A DNA stretch of 64,000 bases from Naegleria gruberi (Eukaryota), in assembly GCA_000004985.1 (NCBI GenBank), contig GG738869.1. One strand, given 5' to 3'. Within the stretch, counting starts at the first letter, position 1. The number at the start of each line of letters is the position of its first letter. The position numbers and the translations under genes were made by a program. Shown in pieces: positions 3,336-14,118 of the stretch. The notes under the pieces were generated by a model. That model searched no databases. It was not told the origin of the DNA and was given only the letters and a program-made list of their open reading frames with translations.

Positions 3336-4562
3336 ATGCAACATTTACAGTTCGTTCCTTCTCCTGAGGAGATTGGCTTTATCAAATCCATTCCTTCGAT
3401 AACATTTTGCAAAATGCACGGATTGGGAAATGATTATATTTACATTAATTGTTGTAATTTATTACATTCATCAGAAGCTAATGATTTCCGAATCTATCTA
3501 AATCATCAACATAATCTAATTGAATATTGTATTCAAAAGTTGTGTCATCGAACATTTGGTATTGGAGCTGATGGTGTAATTTTCATCACGAATCCAACAC
3601 CAGAATTATTGGAGAATGAAACAAATCATCATCAAATAATTCATTGTCAAATGGAAATGTACAATTCCGATGGATCGAGTGGAGAAATGTGTGGAAATGG
3701 ATTGAGATGTGTTGCTCAGTTTGCCTGTGATCGTTTGGTGGAGAGTGGTAAAATTAAAAAACAAACACTTGAGGGAGGACAACTTGGATATAGAATCAAT
3801 GTACAAAGTAATAGAGGAAAGAGATTGTATCAATGTATTTGTTATGAGGATAGGTCTACATTTTCCAAATCTTCACCTCTGATGGTTGAGATTGAGATGG
3901 GAAATTTACAAACAAAAAGTGTTAATTTCTCATTTGAAAATAATTCAAATTCTATTGAATATGTGGAACAGGAGGAGAATTCAATTAGGAAAATCATTTT
4001 CAAACAATATTTGGATTGTGAAATTCCTCTGTATTGTCTTTTGGTACCTAATCCACATGCCATTTGTTGGGTTAATGAAATTTCTTCACAGAATGAGATT
4101 GATAACACAATGAAAGCAGTCGATTCATTCCCACTTCATACAATTGGTCCAATCATTGAAAATTTGAAACAATTATTTCCAAATAGGACCAATGTAGAAT
4201 TCATTGAAACCATTTCAGCTCAGCATATTGAAACAAATGATTCACCTCTCATCAAATCATTAAAATCCAATTGCATTCTCTCTGCCCGTCAACGTACTTG
4301 GGAGAGAGGTAGTGGAGAAACCAATGCATGTGGGACTGGAGCTTTTGCTGTATCTCAAGTTCTCTACTTGAGAAATGCCATCACCAATTCAATTGGCAAT
4401 ATTCCAAATACTGCCACAGTCAGAATATCCCTCAATGGAGGTGATTTATGGTTCAGATATCACAAATCAAATCCAACTTCACTCGATCATATTCAAGTCA
4501 ACATGATTGGTTCTGTCAATTATTCTCACACAGGCTCCTTCAAATTATCAGATTATCAATAA
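3336..4562 (+). CDS. dapF: Diaminopimelate epimerase (DapF)-family protein, 408 aa, intronless, with host-like AT-rich composition
   Basis: All three DapF signature blocks are present: FCKMHGLGNDYIYIN (FxKMHGxGNDF), YNSDGSSGEMCGNGLRCVAQF (NADGSxxExCGNGxRC, Cys73 equivalent) and ERGSGETNACGTGAFAVSQ (ERGAGETxACGxG, Cys217 equivalent). Relative to the ~275-aa bacterial enzymes it has a 25-aa N-terminal extension and insertions. Confidence 0.75.
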   Translation: MQHLQFVPSPEEIGFIKSIPSITFCKMHGLGNDYIYINCCNLLHSSEANDFRIYLNHQHNLIEYCIQKLCHRTFGIGADGVIFITNPTPELLENETNHHQIIHCQMEMYNSDGSSGEMCGNGLRCVAQFACDRLVESGKIKKQTLEGGQLGYRINVQSNRGKRLYQCICYEDRSTFSKSSPLMVEIEMGNLQTKSVNFSFENNSNSIEYVEQEENSIRKIIFKQYLDCEIPLYCLLVPNPHAICWVNEISSQNEIDNTMKAVDSFPLHTIGPIIENLKQLFPNRTNVEFIETISAQHIETNDSPLIKSLKSNCILSARQRTWERGSGETNACGTGAFAVSQVLYLRNAITNSIGNIPNTATVRISLNGGDLWFRYHKSNPTSLDHIQVNMIGSVNYSHTGSFKLSDYQ

Positions 4563-8411: not shown

Positions 8412-9452
8412 TTACAAAATGTTAGCTCTGTGTAAATTACACAACAATTGATTATAGTTGAAAAGAGGTCCATATTGCATATCATGCCAATAATTGACTG
8501 CAACCACAACACCTTCCTCATTGTGGTCCTGAGCCACTTGATGAAGCCATAAAGATGGAAGATATAAAGCATCTCCAGGTCCAATCTCCACTTTGAATGG
8601 AGTGGCATGCTTATATCTTGGGTAAACTTGAATGATTTCCTCTCTAGTTTGTTTATCTGGATCAACATCAATCCAAGGGACTTGCGTATCTTCATCTACA
8701 ATCTTCCATTCATTATCTTCAAAATGATAGTGAGCTTCATTATAATTCTTATAAGGCACATTTACAACATCTGTTGGAGGATAAAGTGTAAAGATTTTCT
8801 TTCCAGCCAATACACAATAAATATTCTCATATGGATCCTTATGTAAACTAGAAGTAGATTGACCATCTCCAATCCACAAATTAACAGCATCTGGTAAATT
8901 ATTAAAAGCTCTCACAGCAAATCCCAATTGTTCTGGAACATCTTGCATGAGTTCTTGAAATTCCTTTGTTAAACTTGAATTTTGATGTTGAGCATAGAAG
9001 ATAGTATTCCATGAATTCATTCCATTAAATTCCTCTTCCTCCTTATCTGGTAAATTATTAAATCTCCTCTTATTAGTCATAAATTGCATAAATTGATTAA
9101 ATTTCATTTTCACTTCCATAGGTTTAATAAATTTTCCTTCATGCACAGCATCAGCCTTTCCATTTGGTGTACAAGCCACAGAAATTTCCTTATCGGAAAG
9201 AACTTGTTTCAAATATTCAACATTCCACTTTTCAGAGGCTGGCCATCCTTCCAAAGCATTCCTAAATATCACTGGTTTATTAGCACTAATATAATGATGA
9301 ACAAAATTTAAAACATCATCCTCATCTTCATAAACTGGAAATCCGTAAAGTTCATCAACTTGTCCTTCCTCTCCGTAGGTTTCCTTGGTTTGTTCCGAGA
9401 GGAGGTCTAATTGTTCGTGGAGCAGGGTTTTCAGTGTGTCGTTTGCGCTCAT
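8412..9452 (-). CDS. JMJD7: JmjC-domain protein, JMJD7 ortholog (2OG/Fe(II) hydroxylase/peptidase), 346 aa
   Basis: Collinear match to JMJD7: PVIFRNALEGWPASEKW, ISVACTPNGKADAV, PDAVNLWIGDGQSTSSLHKDPYENIYCVLAGKKIFTLYPP, VPWIDVDP, GDALYLPSLWLHQVAQ, VNYWHDMQYG. Confidence 0.9.
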   Translation of the reverse strand: MSANDTLKTLLHEQLDLLSEQTKETYGEEGQVDELYGFPVYEDEDDVLNFVHHYISANKPVIFRNALEGWPASEKWNVEYLKQVLSDKEISVACTPNGKADAVHEGKFIKPMEVKMKFNQFMQFMTNKRRFNNLPDKEEEEFNGMNSWNTIFYAQHQNSSLTKEFQELMQDVPEQLGFAVRAFNNLPDAVNLWIGDGQSTSSLHKDPYENIYCVLAGKKIFTLYPPTDVVNVPYKNYNEAHYHFEDNEWKIVDEDTQVPWIDVDPDKQTREEIIQVYPRYKHATPFKVEIGPGDALYLPSLWLHQVAQDHNEEGVVVAVNYWHDMQYGPLFNYNQLLCNLHRANIL

Positions 9453-9630: not shown

Positions 9631-11301
9631 TTAAATGAAAGGAAGATCACTTGTTGGAGATTGAGGAGAATTTGGAGAAGTAGTGTTCATATTCAAAGCA
9701 AGTGTTGATTTGAATTGAAAATGAGTTAGAGAAAGAATATCCGATATTTCCTTTTCGAGATTATCCAAAATTTTTGAATGGAGAATGTCCACAGTTTCGT
9801 ATGAGCCTTGTCTATTGTTATAGAGATCGATTTGGTGGATAATCCATTCCATACTACCAAGATAAACAGATTCTGATTGAATGGAATCATGAATTTCAAA
9901 AATGATTTCGTATTTGATTCGTTCTAGATGGGAAAGTTTCTTTTCAAGTTCATTCGAAACTTGCTGAATATAAATGTCTGCTCCTTTAGCCAAAGACTTT
10001 TCCGCTACAAACTCCTTTGTAATTTCATATAATTTGAGCTGACAATCTATTGAATCTTTACAAAATTCTTTAAAATATTGAATTCTTTCCAAAATTGAAA
10101 ATGGAATTCCAACCTTTGCCTTTTTACAAAATGTTTTAAATTCATCTCGCATTCCAATATCAGCCATCGTATCCTTCAATATATTAGTACTCTCAATCCT
10201 AACTTTCTTCTCATTTCGTATCAACTTTCGTCCCAACATTAAATAAACTAATATTCCAACAGGAATAACAATCACACAAGCCAGACACGACAAGACCAAC
10301 ACTGAAATTCCACTCGCTATGGTAAACTCATCAATTCTATTGCACAACAAGTAAATATCCTCCAATATCTCAAAAAACTTTGTTTCGAATAGTTCCATTT
10401 CATATTTAAATGTTCCATTATAATATTTGACATTGTAAACATTAAATTGTTGATAAAATTCATCCAATTTCGTATAATTTGAAGTATAATTACTCAGCTT
10501 ACAAAACAACCCAATCATTTCTGTCCAATTCTGATAAAGTGGCAGAAACACTTCCTCACCATTCGAATTTCCCATAAACGAATGTTCATAACTGTCAGGT
10601 ATTAAGGAAATCATTTTAAAAACCGATTGATTATAATCAAGCAGTGTATAATTAAGCATATCACAAAAATCTGAATAATTAATCGTTTCCAAACTATTAT
10701 TAAGAGCACTCAATTCTAACATGTCTCGTAAATAGACGAAAGAAGATTTAACTGAATATCGACTAATGAGTAGTTCCTTAATGGGAACAAATTCGGCTAT
10801 TCGTGATGGGACAATGATGGCGAGGGCAATGATGAGTAGAAACAAAATATTGATGAACATGGCCATGGTGGCAAGTAATGGAATTAATCCGAAACGTTTC
10901 GAACAACAATTGATTTGTTTTTTTGATAGTGAACGAGCCAAATCATCAACATGATTGGTTTCGTCCCGAATTTCCTCTATACCTGCTGGTAATTGATCTT
11001 CTATCCTTTCATCCTCAAATAGTATCCTCGGTTGACTTTCGAATACATTTTCATTCTCCACAAAAACACTTCCTTCATCATTTTCATAATTATTTGGTGA
11101 TTGAATTGAAGAATAACTTATTGCCCTCTTCAATTCAAAAGTAGACGGCTTGCTATATGATGGTGGATCATTTAAAAGCATTTTTATGATTCGTAAATAA
11201 GTTATTCGAAAGGAAAGAAGTAGAAATAGAGATAAAAACAACATAAAAAAAAGGCATTTCAGAGTACTTACGAGTAGTAACTTGAAACAAGAAAATGCCA
11301 A
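9631..11301 (-). CDS. Two-pass membrane receptor-like protein (TM1, then a ~180-aa N-glycosylation-rich ectodomain, then TM2, then a ~200-aa cytoplasmic region with an RGS-like segment). The true start is probably an internal Met (e.g. MLLNDPP...).
   Basis: Hydrophobic segments FGLIPLLATMAMFINILFLLIIALAIIV and ASGISVLVLSCLACVIVIPVGILVYLML flank a domain with 8 or more NxS/T sites. The cytoplasmic part has FKTFCKKAKVGIPFSILERIQYFKEF, resembling the RGS core (FxxFLxxEFSEENLxFWxAxEEFK). It is a paralog of the adjacent + strand gene. Confidence 0.45.
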   Translation of the reverse strand: MAFSCFKLLLVSTLKCLFFMLFLSLFLLLSFRITYLRIIKMLLNDPPSYSKPSTFELKRAISYSSIQSPNNYENDEGSVFVENENVFESQPRILFEDERIEDQLPAGIEEIRDETNHVDDLARSLSKKQINCCSKRFGLIPLLATMAMFINILFLLIIALAIIVPSRIAEFVPIKELLISRYSVKSSFVYLRDMLELSALNNSLETINYSDFCDMLNYTLLDYNQSVFKMISLIPDSYEHSFMGNSNGEEVFLPLYQNWTEMIGLFCKLSNYTSNYTKLDEFYQQFNVYNVKYYNGTFKYEMELFETKFFEILEDIYLLCNRIDEFTIASGISVLVLSCLACVIVIPVGILVYLMLGRKLIRNEKKVRIESTNILKDTMADIGMRDEFKTFCKKAKVGIPFSILERIQYFKEFCKDSIDCQLKLYEITKEFVAEKSLAKGADIYIQQVSNELEKKLSHLERIKYEIIFEIHDSIQSESVYLGSMEWIIHQIDLYNNRQGSYETVDILHSKILDNLEKEISDILSLTHFQFKSTLALNMNTTSPNSPQSPTSDLPFI

Positions 11302-12602
11302 TCAATGAAATACGTAAAAACGTCAAGGCCAATCAAGAGACTACTTTCACAACCAAGTCTTCATCTCTTGATTCGAATATGCCAACTAGGCGAAAGATTG
11401 TAAAGTATTTGAGACTAATCTTGTTGATAGGATTCATTATCAACTTTTTATCTTTCATTTCAATTGCTATTATTTCAATATTATCTTTTCAAAGTTCTAA
11501 TTTTTCATTATCAACTGCCATATACAAATATGGAAATGCATATTTGGGTTATGATGAAATGGAATTGGCAGAATTTTTAGTATTACTGACAAGAAAGGAG
11601 AAATTCATTCAAAGATATTATCATTCAAAGAATGAATTGAATAGTTCACTTTCGTATGCTTTTCAAATAATTTCGAATGAAAATTCTTCTTGGATTCCAA
11701 CTCACGAATGGTTCCAAATTGAAAATCACGTAATGGAACTAGTCAAGAGTGGAAACTATTCTCAAGCTTACTCAGTTTCAACTTCTCCAGAACACAAACT
11801 AGCAGATCTTCGATTTATCCAATTTTTAGATTCAGTTCTCGCTCAATTATTCCAAATCAGTGAAACAAAAGAAGCAGAATATATGAAATACACAACTATT
11901 GATCTGGTTGTGGTGATTCTCTGTTTAGGAATTGCCATTCCAATTGTTTTATTAATTTTCATTGGAGTTATTAAATTGGATCGAGATTCAAAGAAGAGAT
12001 TGGAGAAGGCAAGGGCAGTTTCGGTTATTCATTCGATTTCTGATCCGTTTCTGAGACCCAAGTTTAGAAAATGTGTTGAGAATGATGAGTTGGTGTGTTT
12101 TGAATTCTTGGAGAATGTTCAATTGTTTAAGGAGAAGAAGAGATCTATTCATTCGACTATTCAGTCGATTCTAGACGAAATGAAAAAAGAAATGATACCT
12201 AATGATGAAGAGGATGATGCTAGTTCATTGAATGGAATTAGCCCACTAACCCTTTCTCCTGATTTATTCTTACAAATCAAGTCAGAAGATGATCAAATTA
12301 AGGCAATTGACATTTACAATCGTTTTCTCAATCCTAAAGAAAATCAGAAACACATCAAATATAAGAATCATGAAAAGATTTTGGAGGAAATTAATCATCA
12401 GAGTAATCAAGACCTGTTGTCCACTGTATTCGATCAGGTACAAATTGAAATTGCTAAAAAGCTCATCAAATCTCATGAATTATTCTCCAAATCTCAATCT
12501 TTCTCCACTCAAGACATTGAAGACCAATTGCTTTCCTATAGATTTGAATATCTTTCAATATTCAAACCTGAAAAACGAAACAGTCTATTCACATCAAAGT
12601 AA
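11295..12602 (+). CDS. Paralogous two-pass membrane receptor-like protein with an RGS-like cytoplasmic segment, 435 aa. Divergently transcribed from the previous gene.
   Basis: Same architecture: TM1 LRLILLIGFIINFLSFISIAIISIL, an ectodomain with NxS/T sites, TM2 LVVVILCLGIAIPIVLLIFIGVI, then FRKCVENDELVCFEFLENVQLFKEKK (RGS-like). Confidence 0.45.
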   Translation: MPINEIRKNVKANQETTFTTKSSSLDSNMPTRRKIVKYLRLILLIGFIINFLSFISIAIISILSFQSSNFSLSTAIYKYGNAYLGYDEMELAEFLVLLTRKEKFIQRYYHSKNELNSSLSYAFQIISNENSSWIPTHEWFQIENHVMELVKSGNYSQAYSVSTSPEHKLADLRFIQFLDSVLAQLFQISETKEAEYMKYTTIDLVVVILCLGIAIPIVLLIFIGVIKLDRDSKKRLEKARAVSVIHSISDPFLRPKFRKCVENDELVCFEFLENVQLFKEKKRSIHSTIQSILDEMKKEMIPNDEEDDASSLNGISPLTLSPDLFLQIKSEDDQIKAIDIYNRFLNPKENQKHIKYKNHEKILEEINHQSNQDLLSTVFDQVQIEIAKKLIKSHELFSKSQSFSTQDIEDQLLSYRFEYLSIFKPEKRNSLFTSK

Positions 12603-12705: not shown

Positions 12706-14118
12706 CTAATTACCAGTTGGTTGAGGTTCAAAAGGTAATTGACTCAATCTGTCCTTTAATTCCTCATTCTTCAAATTTGAGTATTTTGTGTTTGATCTTT
12801 TTCTTTTGATTAAGACTGCCAACACTACAATTCCAATTAACAATGCCACACAACCAACGATAGCAAGAATTGATGAAATGATGATAATCAATGTTGTGGT
12901 TGACATTGGTGAAGAATTGTTTTGATTTCCGTTAGTATTGCTGTTCATGATATATGATTTTTGAGGAGTAGGTCCAACATTCACACATTCTGTGAAATAT
13001 TTGTTATTTGTTTGACCTTGAGGACATGGTTGACAAGATGCTCCATTAATTATATAGTTATCATCGCAATATGGAGAGAGTACATTAATAACAGAGTTCT
13101 TATTCGAAACATATATTACTCCAAGATAACACTTCAAGTATGCTTCATTTTCATAGGTGTAAATGGTGTCAATGATACCATTAGTTACCTTTCTAATTCT
13201 CTTATTGAGAGAATCGTTGAAAATAATTGAACCTTGTGAAGCACATATTTGAGATGGATTATGAATTCTTGCTAATTTAGCTGAACCCTTATCACCGGTA
13301 AAACAATCAGAACATGGATCAAGATCAGGAAATGGTCTTCTATATTGTACACCGACTGGAGTTGAGAGAATGTTGTTTTTCATGTCCACCTTTCGGATAA
13401 GATTATTTCTCGTATCTGAAATGAAAATGTTACCCTCCTCATCCATTGCAATACCAGTAGGGTAGTACAATGGAATTGACCGAGGAGGACCATCAGTACC
13501 AATGAAATTATCTGTTCTTGGTATCACGCCTGCAATTGTTGAAATAGTTGTATGAATCGTCACCCTTCTGATAACATAATCAAATGACTGAGCAACGTAC
13601 AGATACGTTCCTGTGGGATCAATAATCAATCCAGATGGGGTGTTAATGTAAACATCTGTTGCAAACCCTCCCTCACCCAAGTTTGGATCGGAAGTTGTTG
13701 CTGCCTTTCCTGCAGTAATTACTATTCGATTTGAATTGAGATATAAAGATCTAACTAAATTATACTTTTCGTCTGTAAAATGAATGGTATCACCGTGGTA
13801 AACCATTTCTTTCACAGATGGCAAGTATGCAGCATTGGCTTGTTCATAAGATGATGACGGAAAGTAATTTTGTGGTGGTTGACCTGTCTGACCAGCTACA
13901 ACATTCAATTGACCATTAGAATACTTATTAATAGTGGCTCCATTGAAATAGAAAAACTCAGCCTTGGATTTGAATGTGAATGCTTGTGCTTTGATGTTAT
14001 CAACAAACTTGTCTGCTTTGAATTTGATTGGAATTTGGGAGTTAACATGTAACCACATGTGTTGATGGACACACAAAAACACCAACACTGTAACTTGAAG
14101 AAGAACAGGCAATTGCAT
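12706..14118 (-). CDS. Type I membrane protein with an NHL-repeat (beta-propeller) ectodomain and a Cys-rich stalk, 470 aa
   Basis: Signal peptide MQLPVLLQVTVLVFLC. Repeated NHL-like units (GGFATDVYINTPSGLIIDPTGTYLYVAQ..., YYPTGIAMDEEGNIFISDTRNNLIRKV, ...NDSLNKRIRKV). Cys-rich CDDNYIINGASCQPCPQGQ, then TM LIIIISSILAIVGCVALLIGIVVLAVLI and a short basic tail. Confidence 0.55.
   Translation of the reverse strand: MQLPVLLQVTVLVFLCVHQHMWLHVNSQIPIKFKADKFVDNIKAQAFTFKSKAEFFYFNGATINKYSNGQLNVVAGQTGQPPQNYFPSSSYEQANAAYLPSVKEMVYHGDTIHFTDEKYNLVRSLYLNSNRIVITAGKAATTSDPNLGEGGFATDVYINTPSGLIIDPTGTYLYVAQSFDYVIRRVTIHTTISTIAGVIPRTDNFIGTDGPPRSIPLYYPTGIAMDEEGNIFISDTRNNLIRKVDMKNNILSTPVGVQYRRPFPDLDPCSDCFTGDKGSAKLARIHNPSQICASQGSIIFNDSLNKRIRKVTNGIIDTIYTYENEAYLKCYLGVIYVSNKNSVINVLSPYCDDNYIINGASCQPCPQGQTNNKYFTECVNVGPTPQKSYIMNSNTNGNQNNSSPMSTTTLIIIISSILAIVGCVALLIGIVVLAVLIKRKRSNTKYSNLKNEELKDRLSQLPFEPQPTGN

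What the first reader, a model, noticed from the sequence alone, without database searches (positions are those of the whole stretch)
9631..12602. Head-to-head paralog pair of 2-TM receptor-like proteins with an RGS-like cytoplasmic domain
Two divergently transcribed ORFs share essentially one short promoter region; the ORFs overlap by 7 nt, though the real starts are probably internal Met codons. They have the same unusual topology: short N-tail, TM1, a heavily N-glycosylation-motif-rich ~180-aa ectodomain, TM2, and a ~200-aa cytoplasmic tail. Both tails contain a segment resembling the RGS-box core (FEFLENVQLFKEKK and FKTFCKKAKVGIPFSILERIQYFKEF). A sensor ectodomain coupled to an RGS domain would be a receptor-GAP for G-alpha signalling, analogous to 7TM-RGS proteins but built on a 2-TM scaffold. 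This is possibly an undescribed family.
Basis: partly seen in the sequence, partly recalled or inferred. Interest (0 to 1): 0.6.

Follow-up and report, generated by a model that had tools for sequence, protein, structure and literature searches.

The report
Paired 2-TM sensor proteins with degenerate RGS domains
Two back-to-back Naegleria gruberi genes encode membrane proteins with a bacterial-chemoreceptor-like four-helix sensor outside the cell and an RGS-type domain inside; both have lost the residues RGS proteins use to switch off G proteins, and this kind of gene pair recurs at other loci and in other species.

Summary
The window is Naegleria gruberi. Gene A (9631-11181, minus strand, 516 aa) and gene B (11295-12602, plus strand, 435 aa) are divergent and 113 bp apart. 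The 7-nt overlap comes from a bacterial-style TTG start. Both have the layout N-in, TM1, 144-169-aa sequon-rich loop, TM2, ~200-aa tail.

Neither protein hits Pfam RGS on its own. An exhaustive search found 43 cluster representatives, all named ones from Naegleria or Willaertia, with the same layout. Thirty of 44 members scanned (30/44) hit PF00615. A profile built without A and B scores A at 123 bits and B at 234 bits. A profile-profile comparison of the A/B-type tails with canonical tails gives 99.6% probability. The RGS guess is therefore correct as homology.

- **Lost contacts.** A and B keep 0 of 6 G-alpha contact residues, including Asn88, Asn128 and Asp163. Twenty canonical members keep 5-6. 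Canonical GAP activity is unlikely.
- **Conserved pairing.** A and B belong to two distant clades. At all seven B-like loci examined, an A-like gene is the immediate neighbour.

Proposed function, inferred only: a heteromeric sensor with non-GAP RGS-homology outputs.

The parts
9631..11181 (-). Gene A: A-type 2TM / four-helix-bundle / RGS-homology protein, 516 aa, stop codon at 9631-9633
   Evidence: ORF. 100% identical to an NCBI N. gruberi predicted protein. The leave-out family HMM gives 123 bits and E 1e-30 over residues 75-499. The A-type clade has 98% bootstrap support.
10867..11181 (-). A cytoplasmic N-tail, residues 1-105, ending in the juxtamembrane Cys-Cys motif INCCSKR
   Evidence: Translation. 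The family consensus just before TM1 is TCCG..EL.
10810..10866 (-). A TM1, residues 106-124
   Evidence: Kyte-Doolittle 19-mer mean 3.04.
10303..10809 (-). A extracellular loop, residues 125-293, with 8 N-X-S/T sequons; aligned with the family's four-helix-bundle ectodomain
   Evidence: The fold is inferred from the model of B and the family alignment.
10246..10302 (-). A TM2, residues 294-312, containing the family-invariant Pro
9694..10188 (-). A RGS-homology domain, residues 332-496, split by an insert; 0 of 6 G-alpha contact residues kept
   Evidence: Closest relatives P0013, P0028 and P0037 pass the Pfam RGS gathering score.
11182..11294 (.). 113-bp spacer between the two start codons; it must hold both 5' UTRs and any shared promoter
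   Evidence: No motif is shared with the spacers of the other head-to-head pairs beyond 7-mers.
11295..12602 (+). Gene B: B-type 2TM / four-helix-bundle / RGS-homology protein, 435 aa
   Evidence: ORF. 100% identical to an NCBI N. gruberi predicted protein. Leave-out HMM 234 bits. B core clade 92% bootstrap.
11418..11474 (+). B TM1, residues 42-60
   Evidence: Helix 31-99 in the AF2 model runs through it.
11475..11906 (+). B extracellular four-helix bundle, residues 61-204, with 4 sequons and the conserved G-N-x3-A-x3-L-x-S-x2-Y motif
11907..11963 (+). B TM2, residues 205-223, part of one continuous predicted helix 165-249 linking ectodomain helix 4 to the first helix of the RGS-homology domain
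12006..12506 (+). B RGS-homology domain, residues 238-404; 0 of 6 G-alpha contact residues kept
   Evidence: hhalign 99.6%, E 1e-23 against canonical tails. Residue table. No direct Pfam hit.
12195..12257 (+). Acidic, Ser-rich, low-confidence insert (residues 301-321) that splits the RGS-homology domain
   Evidence: pLDDT 53-60 with no secondary structure. The family-wide variable insert is visible.

Best explanation
Shown. A and B belong to a family of type-III-like (N-in, C-in) 2-TM membrane proteins. All named members come from vahlkampfiid amoebae (Naegleria, Willaertia). The extracellular loop is predicted to be an up-down four-helix bundle whose first and last helices continue into TM1 and TM2. 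The cytoplasmic tail is an RGS-homology domain. Most family members keep the canonical G-alpha-binding residues. A and B represent two distant subfamilies, A-type and B-type, in which all of these residues are replaced while the hydrophobic core positions are kept. A-type and B-type genes are immediate neighbours at every B-like locus examined.

Inferred. The proteins sit in the plasma membrane with a glycosylated sensor bundle outside. Ligand binding or another surface cue would be transmitted as a helix displacement through TM2, which forms one continuous helix into the RGS-homology domain, as in bacterial 4HB chemoreceptors and sensor kinases. Both partners lack the catalytic-interface residues, so the output is probably not canonical GAP activity. 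A regulated binding or scaffolding surface is more likely, comparable to the non-GAP RGS-homology domains of GRKs, Axin and sorting nexins. The conserved adjacency of one A-type with one B-type gene, mostly head to head, suggests that they are co-expressed and act together, most simply as an A/B heteromer.
For: - **Family and architecture.** 43 cluster representatives match at E<1e-3. Nearly all have 2 TM helices and a 133-189-aa Cys-poor loop.
- **RGS homology.** 30/44 members hit PF00615, best E 2e-9. P0013, P0028 and P0037 score 33-35 bits against a gathering score of 23.9, over the whole Pfam model. In a family-profile search of PDB sequences, 22 of 24 hits are RGS, Axin or SNX13 RGS domains. 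The leave-out HMM scores A at 123 bits and B at 234 bits. hhalign gives 99.6% probability and E 1e-23.
- **Topology.** Sequon enrichment and the positive-inside pattern both fit N-in, C-in.
- **Degenerate interface.** A-type genes keep 0/6 contact residues in 4 of 4 cases. B-like genes keep 0-1/6 in 9 of 9 cases. Twenty canonical members keep 5-6/6. Asn128, Asn88 and Asp163 are described as the three critical contacts (PMC8252600). The E87A/N88A double mutant of RGS4 loses GAP activity (PMC10794492).
- **Clades.** A-type 98% bootstrap, B core 92%, wider B-like 99.5%.
- **Pairing.** Head-to-head in the window, L001, L004, L007 and L008; convergent in N. fowleri L002 and N. lovaniensis L003. The partner of P0008 (L007) and the partner of P0017 (L008) are orthologs, as P0008 and P0017 are themselves. 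This indicates that pairs were duplicated or inherited as units.
Against: - A and B have no direct Pfam RGS hit.
- The RGS fold of the tail could not be confirmed by fold search, because four-helix-bundle hits fill the lists and the model cannot be cropped.
- Loss of canonical contacts does not prove loss of G-alpha binding. Naegleria has many divergent G-alpha subunits, and some RGS-like domains bind G-alpha through other surfaces.
- No expression, localisation or interaction data were available.
- Adjacency can persist without functional coupling, and canonical members also occur as tandem duplicates (L005).
- The convergent orientation in N. fowleri and N. lovaniensis shows that a shared bidirectional promoter is not the conserved element.
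- The partners in L001, L007 and L008 are cut by contig ends, so their A-type assignment rests on N-terminal and ectodomain similarity only.
Confidence: 0.6

Rival explanations
1. One reading: A and B are active receptor-GAPs. A sensor ectodomain controls a catalytically competent RGS domain that accelerates GTP hydrolysis on a G-alpha subunit.
For: The tails are true RGS homologs. Canonical family members keep the complete contact set. Naegleria RGS domains on 7TM scaffolds are proven GAPs, and its G-alpha subunits are self-activating, which makes GAPs the natural control point (PMC9283941). G-alpha subunits are diversified in Naegleria (PMC3971589), so an unusual interface might match an unusual G-alpha.
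Against: All six contact positions are replaced in both proteins: B has E/V/C/H/K/L and A has V/I/P/gap/L/Q. These include the Glu-Asn dyad, whose mutation abolishes RGS4 GAP activity, and all three 'critical contacts'. The same loss is fixed throughout both clades, so it is not a sporadic substitution.
Confidence: 0.15
2. The adjacency is historical only. An ancient inverted tandem duplication produced an A/B pair that was later copied as a block, and each protein works alone, for example as a homodimer, with no functional coupling or shared regulation.
For: Family genes are prone to tandem duplication (L005: two same-strand neighbours 55% identical). Orientation differs between species, head-to-head against convergent. 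No motif is shared among the spacers. Bacterial 4HB sensors are typically homodimers (established knowledge).
Against: A-like and B-like genes are adjacent at 7 of 7 loci although the two clades are only ~15-25% identical. Adjacency is kept across N. gruberi, N. fowleri, N. lovaniensis and a higher-GC environmental relative, and it survives an inversion. Both clades have lost the G-alpha contact residues in parallel.
Confidence: 0.25
3. A and B are decaying, functionless copies (pseudogenes in the making) of the canonical 2TM-RGS family.
For: They lack all functional RGS residues and score poorly against Pfam. The N. lovaniensis A-type partner is broken into several ORFs.
Against: Both ORFs are intact over 435 and 516 codons. 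Both clades persist across species with conserved TM helices, bundle motif and RGS core positions F76, L92 and F168. The AF2 model is confident. The breaks in L003 may be introns.
Confidence: 0.04

Closest known systems
7TM-RGS proteins (Arabidopsis AtRGS1; the 28 N. fowleri 7TM-RGS proteins)
   Same: A membrane-embedded receptor-like N-terminal part is fused to a C-terminal cytoplasmic RGS domain. Both occur in the same organism group, and both belong to a lineage-specific RGS expansion (PMC9283941; PMC3971589).
   Different: A and B have 2 TM helices, not 7. Their sensor is a four-helix bundle between the TM helices rather than a 7TM core or N-terminal EGF/lectin modules. A and B lack the G-alpha contact residues, whereas the tested Nf 7TM-RGS domains are active GAPs.
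Bacterial 4HB sensor modules of chemoreceptors and histidine kinases (Tar/Tsr, PcaY, McpN, NarX/NarQ, TorS, QseE, HK9)
   Different: There is no significant sequence or profile similarity. A and B are eukaryotic, their loops carry enriched N-glycosylation sequons, and the output is an RGS-homology domain rather than HAMP plus a kinase or methyl-accepting domain. Homology against convergence is unresolved.
Non-GAP RGS-homology domains (GRK2 RH domain, Axin, SNX13/14/25, D-AKAP2)
   Same: The RGS fold and core residues are retained while canonical G-alpha contact residues are lost. The literature notes that some RGS domains lost GAP activity and became scaffolds, and that GRKs carry an inactive RGS domain (PMC3971589). 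Axin and SNX13 appear among the profile hits.
   Different: There is no specific relationship to any of these subfamilies. A and B derive from a Naegleria/Willaertia-specific clade whose other members look catalytically intact. Their binding partners are unknown.

Membership tests
RGS domain superfamily (Pfam PF00615) | Significant sequence-profile match of the protein itself to the RGS model | tested here: not met
   A and B have no PF00615 hit even at E<=1. phmmer of B against PDB sequences finds nothing.
RGS domain superfamily (Pfam PF00615) | Homology to bona fide RGS domains established through intermediate sequences or profiles | tested here: met
   30/44 family members hit PF00615, and three exceed the gathering score over the full model. 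In the family-profile search of PDB sequences, 22 of 24 hits are RGS-type domains. The leave-out HMM scores A at 123 bits and B at 234 bits. hhalign of A/B-type tails against canonical tails gives 99.6% and E 1e-23 over 160 columns.
RGS domain superfamily (Pfam PF00615) | Nine-helix RGS fold | tested here: inconclusive
Catalytically active RGS (G-alpha GAP) | Conserved G-alpha switch-contact residues (RGS4 Ser85, Glu87, Asn88, Asn128, Asp163, Arg167) | tested here: not met
   A and B each keep 0/6; canonical family members keep 5-6/6. The roles of these residues are given in PMC8252600 and PMC10794492.
Catalytically active RGS (G-alpha GAP) | Measured acceleration of GTP hydrolysis on a G-alpha subunit | not testable with these tools
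   This needs recombinant tails and Naegleria G-alpha subunits, for example the BODIPY-GTP assay of PMC9283941.
7TM-RGS receptors (AtRGS1 type) | Seven transmembrane helices N-terminal to the RGS domain | tested here: not met
   A and B each have exactly two hydrophobic segments, as do 38 of the 39 members in the main family alignment (from the scan).
Bacterial-type 4HB sensor domain (Pfam 4HB_MCP_1 PF12729 / TarH PF02203) | Antiparallel four-helix bundle inserted between TM1 and TM2 | tested here: met
Bacterial-type 4HB sensor domain (Pfam 4HB_MCP_1 PF12729 / TarH PF02203) | Sequence-profile membership | tested here: not met
   Only 2 of 34 ectodomains touch PF12729 (best E 0.03) and 1 touches CHASE3 (E 0.08), all far below the cut-offs. 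The ectodomain profile search of PDB sequences returns unrelated helical proteins.
Vahlkampfiid 2TM-4HB-RGS family (defined here) | Full-length match (TM1, loop, TM2, tail) to a family profile built without the query | tested here: met
   B matches profile positions 51-473 and A positions 53-463. Shuffled controls score at most 5.5 bits.
A-type/B-type paired subfamilies (defined here) | Clade membership plus an adjacent partner of the other type | tested here: met
   Clade support is 98% for A-type and 92% / 99.5% for B-type. An A-like neighbour is present at 7 of 7 B-like loci. The partners in L001, L007 and L008 are truncated by contig ends.

The most novel reading that the evidence does not exclude
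A-type and B-type proteins form an obligate heteromeric surface receptor. It would be a eukaryotic counterpart, by descent or by convergence, of the bacterial TM1-4HB-TM2 chemoreceptor input module. Its piston or scissor signal through TM2 would control a pair of catalytically dead RGS-homology domains. These would act as a ligand-gated docking site or sequestering trap for G-alpha subunits or another partner, rather than as a GAP. This would be a transmembrane signalling mode not described in eukaryotes. The canonical members of the same family would be the corresponding 2-TM receptor-GAPs.
Probability: 0.2. Interest if true: 0.75.

Novelty: new variant of a known kind. Interest (0 to 1): 0.55.

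Why it matters
Naegleria controls self-activating G-alpha subunits mainly through membrane-anchored RGS proteins, and only the 7TM-RGS class has been studied (PMC9283941). This locus exposes a second receptor-like RGS class built on a different input module, a chemoreceptor-like four-helix bundle between two TM helices. Several dozen members are detected across Naegleria and Willaertia.

The family contains canonical and interface-dead subfamilies side by side. That offers a natural experiment on how RGS domains lose GAP function and are repurposed.

The conserved A-type/B-type gene pairs give a concrete, testable case of possible heteromeric receptor assembly and bidirectional co-regulation in a protist with few genetic landmarks.

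If the ectodomain proves homologous to bacterial 4HB sensors, it would also be an example of a prokaryotic sensory module wired into heterotrimeric G-protein signalling. [quoted passage not shown] That may interest those looking for parasite-specific surface proteins.

Tried and rejected
- **Direct Pfam scans of A and B.** No RGS hit; only sub-threshold DUF6584 and HSR hits, treated as noise.
- **phmmer of B against PDB sequences.** Nothing found.
- **Three word-indexed homolog searches** (A, B, and the family alignment). Only the queries themselves came back. The exhaustive representative search was needed.
- **Single-sequence AF2 of B.** Unusable, pLDDT 48. The alignment-based run was good.
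- **Foldseek against PDB.** No hit at E<1e-3.
- **afdb50 fold library.** Not installed, so structural relatives in other eukaryotes could not be surveyed.
- **Further paralogs in the 64-kb window.** None found.
- **Functional clustering with neighbours.** Rejected. The flanking genes are unrelated: JmjC/Cupin_8, an NHL-repeat TM protein, PRMT5, DAP epimerase, TPR, LRR and a nucleoside hydrolase.
- **Shared promoter motif among the four head-to-head spacers examined** (window, L001, L004, L007; L008 not included). Nothing beyond a few 7-mers.
- **Ectodomain profile against PDB sequences, and ectodomains against Pfam.** Only noise and sub-threshold 4HB_MCP_1/CHASE3 hints.
- **Literature.** Anantharaman et al. 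2011 (PMC3396428) and Kimple et al. 2011 (PMC3141876) are not held.
- **Encoding-contig index.** It lacks the N. gruberi reference genome, so the neighbours of B itself, P0006, P0013 and P0016 could not be retrieved there.
- **First NJ attempts.** One timed out and one failed on saturated distances. Distances were then capped at p=0.84, so deep branch lengths are not reliable, although the bipartition supports are still informative.
Full report
**1. What is in the sequence**

The window is Naegleria gruberi. Both ORFs are 100% identical to NCBI 'predicted protein [Naegleria gruberi]' entries on a 747-kb scaffold. Composition is ~31-38% GC, with densely packed and apparently mostly intron-free ORFs.

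The mechanical ORF list gives 9631-11301 (-) from a TTG and 11295-12602 (+). That TTG start is the only source of the '7-nt overlap'. The annotated proteins start at ATG codons:
- A is 516 aa, 9631-11181 (-).
- B is 435 aa, 11295-12602 (+).
- The spacer between them is 113 bp and 27% GC. This is the shortest divergent spacing among the large ORFs of the window.

Hydropathy finds exactly two TM segments in each protein: A 106-124 and 294-312, B 42-60 and 205-223.

The loops are 169 and 144 aa. They carry 8 and 4 N-X-S/T sequons, against 2.05 and 1.47 expected from shuffling the loop. No shuffle out of 5000 reaches 8 for A, and P=0.04 for B. Lys+Arg counts follow the positive-inside rule. One correction applies: A's N-tail is 105 aa, not short.

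**2. Are they paralogs, and of what?**

Directly, the two proteins are barely similar. BLASTP gives E 0.005 at 25% identity over 250 aa, spanning TM2 and the first RGS-like helices. phmmer sees nothing. Word-indexed searches found only the proteins themselves.

An exhaustive phmmer search of 1.8 billion cluster representatives with B found 43 proteins at E<1e-3, 14 of them at E<1e-10. They are mostly 400-600 aa, and almost all have two TM helices and a 133-189-aa, nearly Cys-free loop with 1-8 sequons.

Every named member comes from N. gruberi, N. fowleri, N. lovaniensis or Willaertia magna. The rest come from unnamed environmental or run assemblies.

A profile built from 37 members with A and B excluded scores B at 234 bits and A at 123 bits (E 1e-30 at the size of the whole library). 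The match runs from TM1 to the end of the tail. Four hundred shuffled controls score at most 5.5 bits. Both are therefore true members of one family. They are not each other's closest relatives.

**3. The RGS question**

Pfam does not detect RGS in A or B. The family evidence is as follows:
- 30/44 members scanned hit PF00615, best E 2e-9.
- A's nearest relatives P0013, P0028 and P0037 exceed the gathering score over the whole model. B's nearest paralog P0003 reaches 21.5 bits, against a cut-off of 23.9.
- When the family profile is searched against all PDB sequences, 22 of 24 hits are RGS4, 2, 8, 10, 1, 3, 5, 7 or 9, GAIP, Axin, SNX13 or EhRGS-RhoGEF. The matches come as two collinear pieces separated by a family-specific insert.
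- hhalign of the A-type and B-type tails against the canonical tails gives 99.6% probability and E 1e-23 over 160 columns, covering B residues 238-404.

Homology to RGS is therefore established through intermediates.

**4. A and B lack the GAP interface**

I aligned the tails with RGS4. I then scored six G-alpha-contact positions: Ser85, Glu87, Asn88, Asn128, Asp163 and Arg167. Results:
- Twenty canonical members keep 5-6 of 6.
- A keeps 0 (V, I, P, gap, L, Q).
- B keeps 0 (E, V, C, H, K, L).
- All four A-type and all nine B-like sequences keep 0-1.
- Structural core positions are kept: F76, F91, W92 replaced by Leu family-wide, and F168.

Asn128, Asn88 and Asp163 are described as the three critical contacts of the RGS4-G-alpha-i1 transition-state complex (PMC8252600). 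The E87A/N88A double mutant loses GAP activity (PMC10794492, citing Srinivasa 1998). Canonical GAP function is therefore unlikely for these two genes. The canonical relatives remain good candidates for 2-TM receptor-GAPs. That some RGS domains lost GAP activity and became scaffolds is already recognised (PMC3971589).

**5. The ectodomain**

AF2 with the 39-sequence family alignment gave a confident model, with mean pLDDT 82.9 and 89-97 over most of the loop. The single-sequence run was useless.

The loop is an antiparallel four-helix bundle. Helix 31-99 runs from the cytoplasm through TM1 into the bundle. Helix 165-249 runs from the bundle through TM2 into the first helix of the RGS-homology domain.

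A conserved G-(N/D)-x3-A-x3-L-x-S-x2-Y motif marks helix 3 and the following turn.

**6. A conserved A-type/B-type gene pair**

I fetched the genomic context of other members. A second family gene lies next to every B-like gene examined, and it is always most similar to A or to other such partners:

| Locus | Source | B-like gene | A-like partner | Orientation |
|---|---|---|---|---|
| window | N. gruberi | B | A | head-to-head, 113 bp |
| L001 | N. gruberi-like contig | P0003 (B's closest paralog) | best hit A, E 6e-15 | head-to-head |
| L004 | environmental, higher GC | P0010 | 566-aa ORF, best hit A, E 2e-36 | head-to-head |
| L007 | environmental | P0008 | truncated partner | head-to-head |
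| L008 | N. gruberi-like contig | P0053, 99.5% identical to P0017 | truncated partner | head-to-head |
| L002 | N. fowleri | P0005 | 754-aa ORF, best hit A, E 1e-37 | convergent |
| L003 | N. lovaniensis | P0007 | syntenic with L002 | convergent |

The L007 and L008 partners are 34% identical to each other over 371 aa, and their next-best hits are the A-type partners.

An NJ tree with 200 bootstraps supports an A-type clade (98%), a B core clade (92%) and a wider B-like clade (99.5%). All are separate from the canonical RGS-retaining members.

Two canonical control loci behave differently. L005 has a same-strand, 55%-identical tandem duplicate, and L006 is solitary.

The window's head-to-head pair is thus one instance of an old, repeatedly inherited and duplicated two-gene unit. 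It is made of two distant subfamilies, both of which have lost the GAP interface. The change of orientation in N. fowleri and N. lovaniensis shows that linkage, not a particular promoter arrangement, is what is conserved. No shared spacer motif was found.

**7. Mechanism**

*Shown:* architecture, topology, homology, loss of contact residues, and conserved adjacency.

*Inferred:*
- The proteins are located at the surface with a glycosylated bundle outside.
- The signal is transmitted through the continuous helix 4-TM2-RGS helix, by analogy with bacterial 4HB receptors.
- The output is binding or scaffolding rather than GAP activity.
- A and B act jointly, most simply as a heteromer, and their co-expression would be favoured by the 113-bp divergent spacer.

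*Rivals:*
- Active receptor-GAPs with an unorthodox interface: 0.15.
- Historical adjacency without functional coupling: 0.25.
- Decaying copies: 0.04.

**8. Comparison and novelty**

The closest known systems are:
- 7TM-RGS proteins, which share the receptor-plus-RGS logic on a different scaffold and have proven GAP activity (PMC9283941).
- Bacterial 4HB sensors, which share the input-module geometry with no sequence link.
- Non-GAP RGS-homology domains, which show the same kind of degeneration.

N. gruberi is known to have ~229 RGS genes, and RGS-TM fusions are reported in most lineages (PMC3971589). UniProt already tags many members of this family as 'RGS domain-containing'. I found no description of the 2TM four-helix-bundle architecture or of the paired degenerate subfamilies. 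However, the key survey, Anantharaman et al. 2011, could not be read.

Verdict: a new variant of a known kind, of moderate interest (0.55).

Noticed in passing
window 10888-10905 (A residues ~90-98, INCCSKRFG); family alignment A3 just before TM1: Most family members carry a conserved juxtamembrane T-C-C-G..E-L motif on the cytoplasmic side of TM1. A has CC and B has none. A di-cysteine next to a TM helix is a typical S-palmitoylation site.
   Followed up: no
family alignment; B residues 301-321 = window 12195-12257: The RGS domain of the whole family is split between its two halves by a variable Ser/Asn/Lys/Asp-rich insert of ~20-60 aa that is predicted to be disordered. This insert is one reason single-sequence Pfam scores are low.
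   Followed up: partly
P0019 (Willaertia magna KAL9656166.1, 1302 aa): This family hit has four hydrophobic segments (57-75, 238-256, 539-557, 877-895) and is more than twice the usual length. It may be a fused gene model of two adjacent family genes, or a true tandem fusion.
   Followed up: no
L003 10223-12064 (-) (N. lovaniensis PYSW02000036.1): The A-type partner of P0007 is split into three overlapping-frame ORFs and two short gene models (288 and 170 aa). The cause could be introns, assembly errors or pseudogenisation.
   Followed up: no
window 12706-14118 (-): Convergent with B, 103 bp from its stop, lies a 470-aa protein with an N-terminal signal-like segment, teneurin-type NHL repeats (PF25021, E 1e-13) and one C-terminal TM helix. 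It is another surface receptor-like gene, unrelated to the family.
   Followed up: partly
window 3336-4562 (+): This ORF has two diaminopimelate epimerase domains (PF01678, E 2e-33). It is a bacterial-type lysine-pathway enzyme in a eukaryotic genome, and its origin was not examined.
   Followed up: no
window 8412-9452 (-): A JmjC/Cupin_8 protein (E 3e-68) whose start codon is 178 bp downstream of A's stop, on the same strand. This illustrates the very tight gene packing around the pair.
   Followed up: partly
L005 5524-7491 and 8001-9722 (+) (N. lovaniensis PYSW02000030.1): Two canonical family members, 55% identical and both with Pfam RGS hits, lie in same-strand tandem. The family therefore also grows by recent tandem duplication.
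   Followed up: partly
L004 and L007 (ENA sample ERZ27315067): These environmental contigs carry A-like/B-like pairs and have 42-43% GC spacers, against 27-31% in N. gruberi. They come from an unidentified relative, so the family is probably more widely distributed among heteroloboseans than the named genomes show.
   Followed up: no
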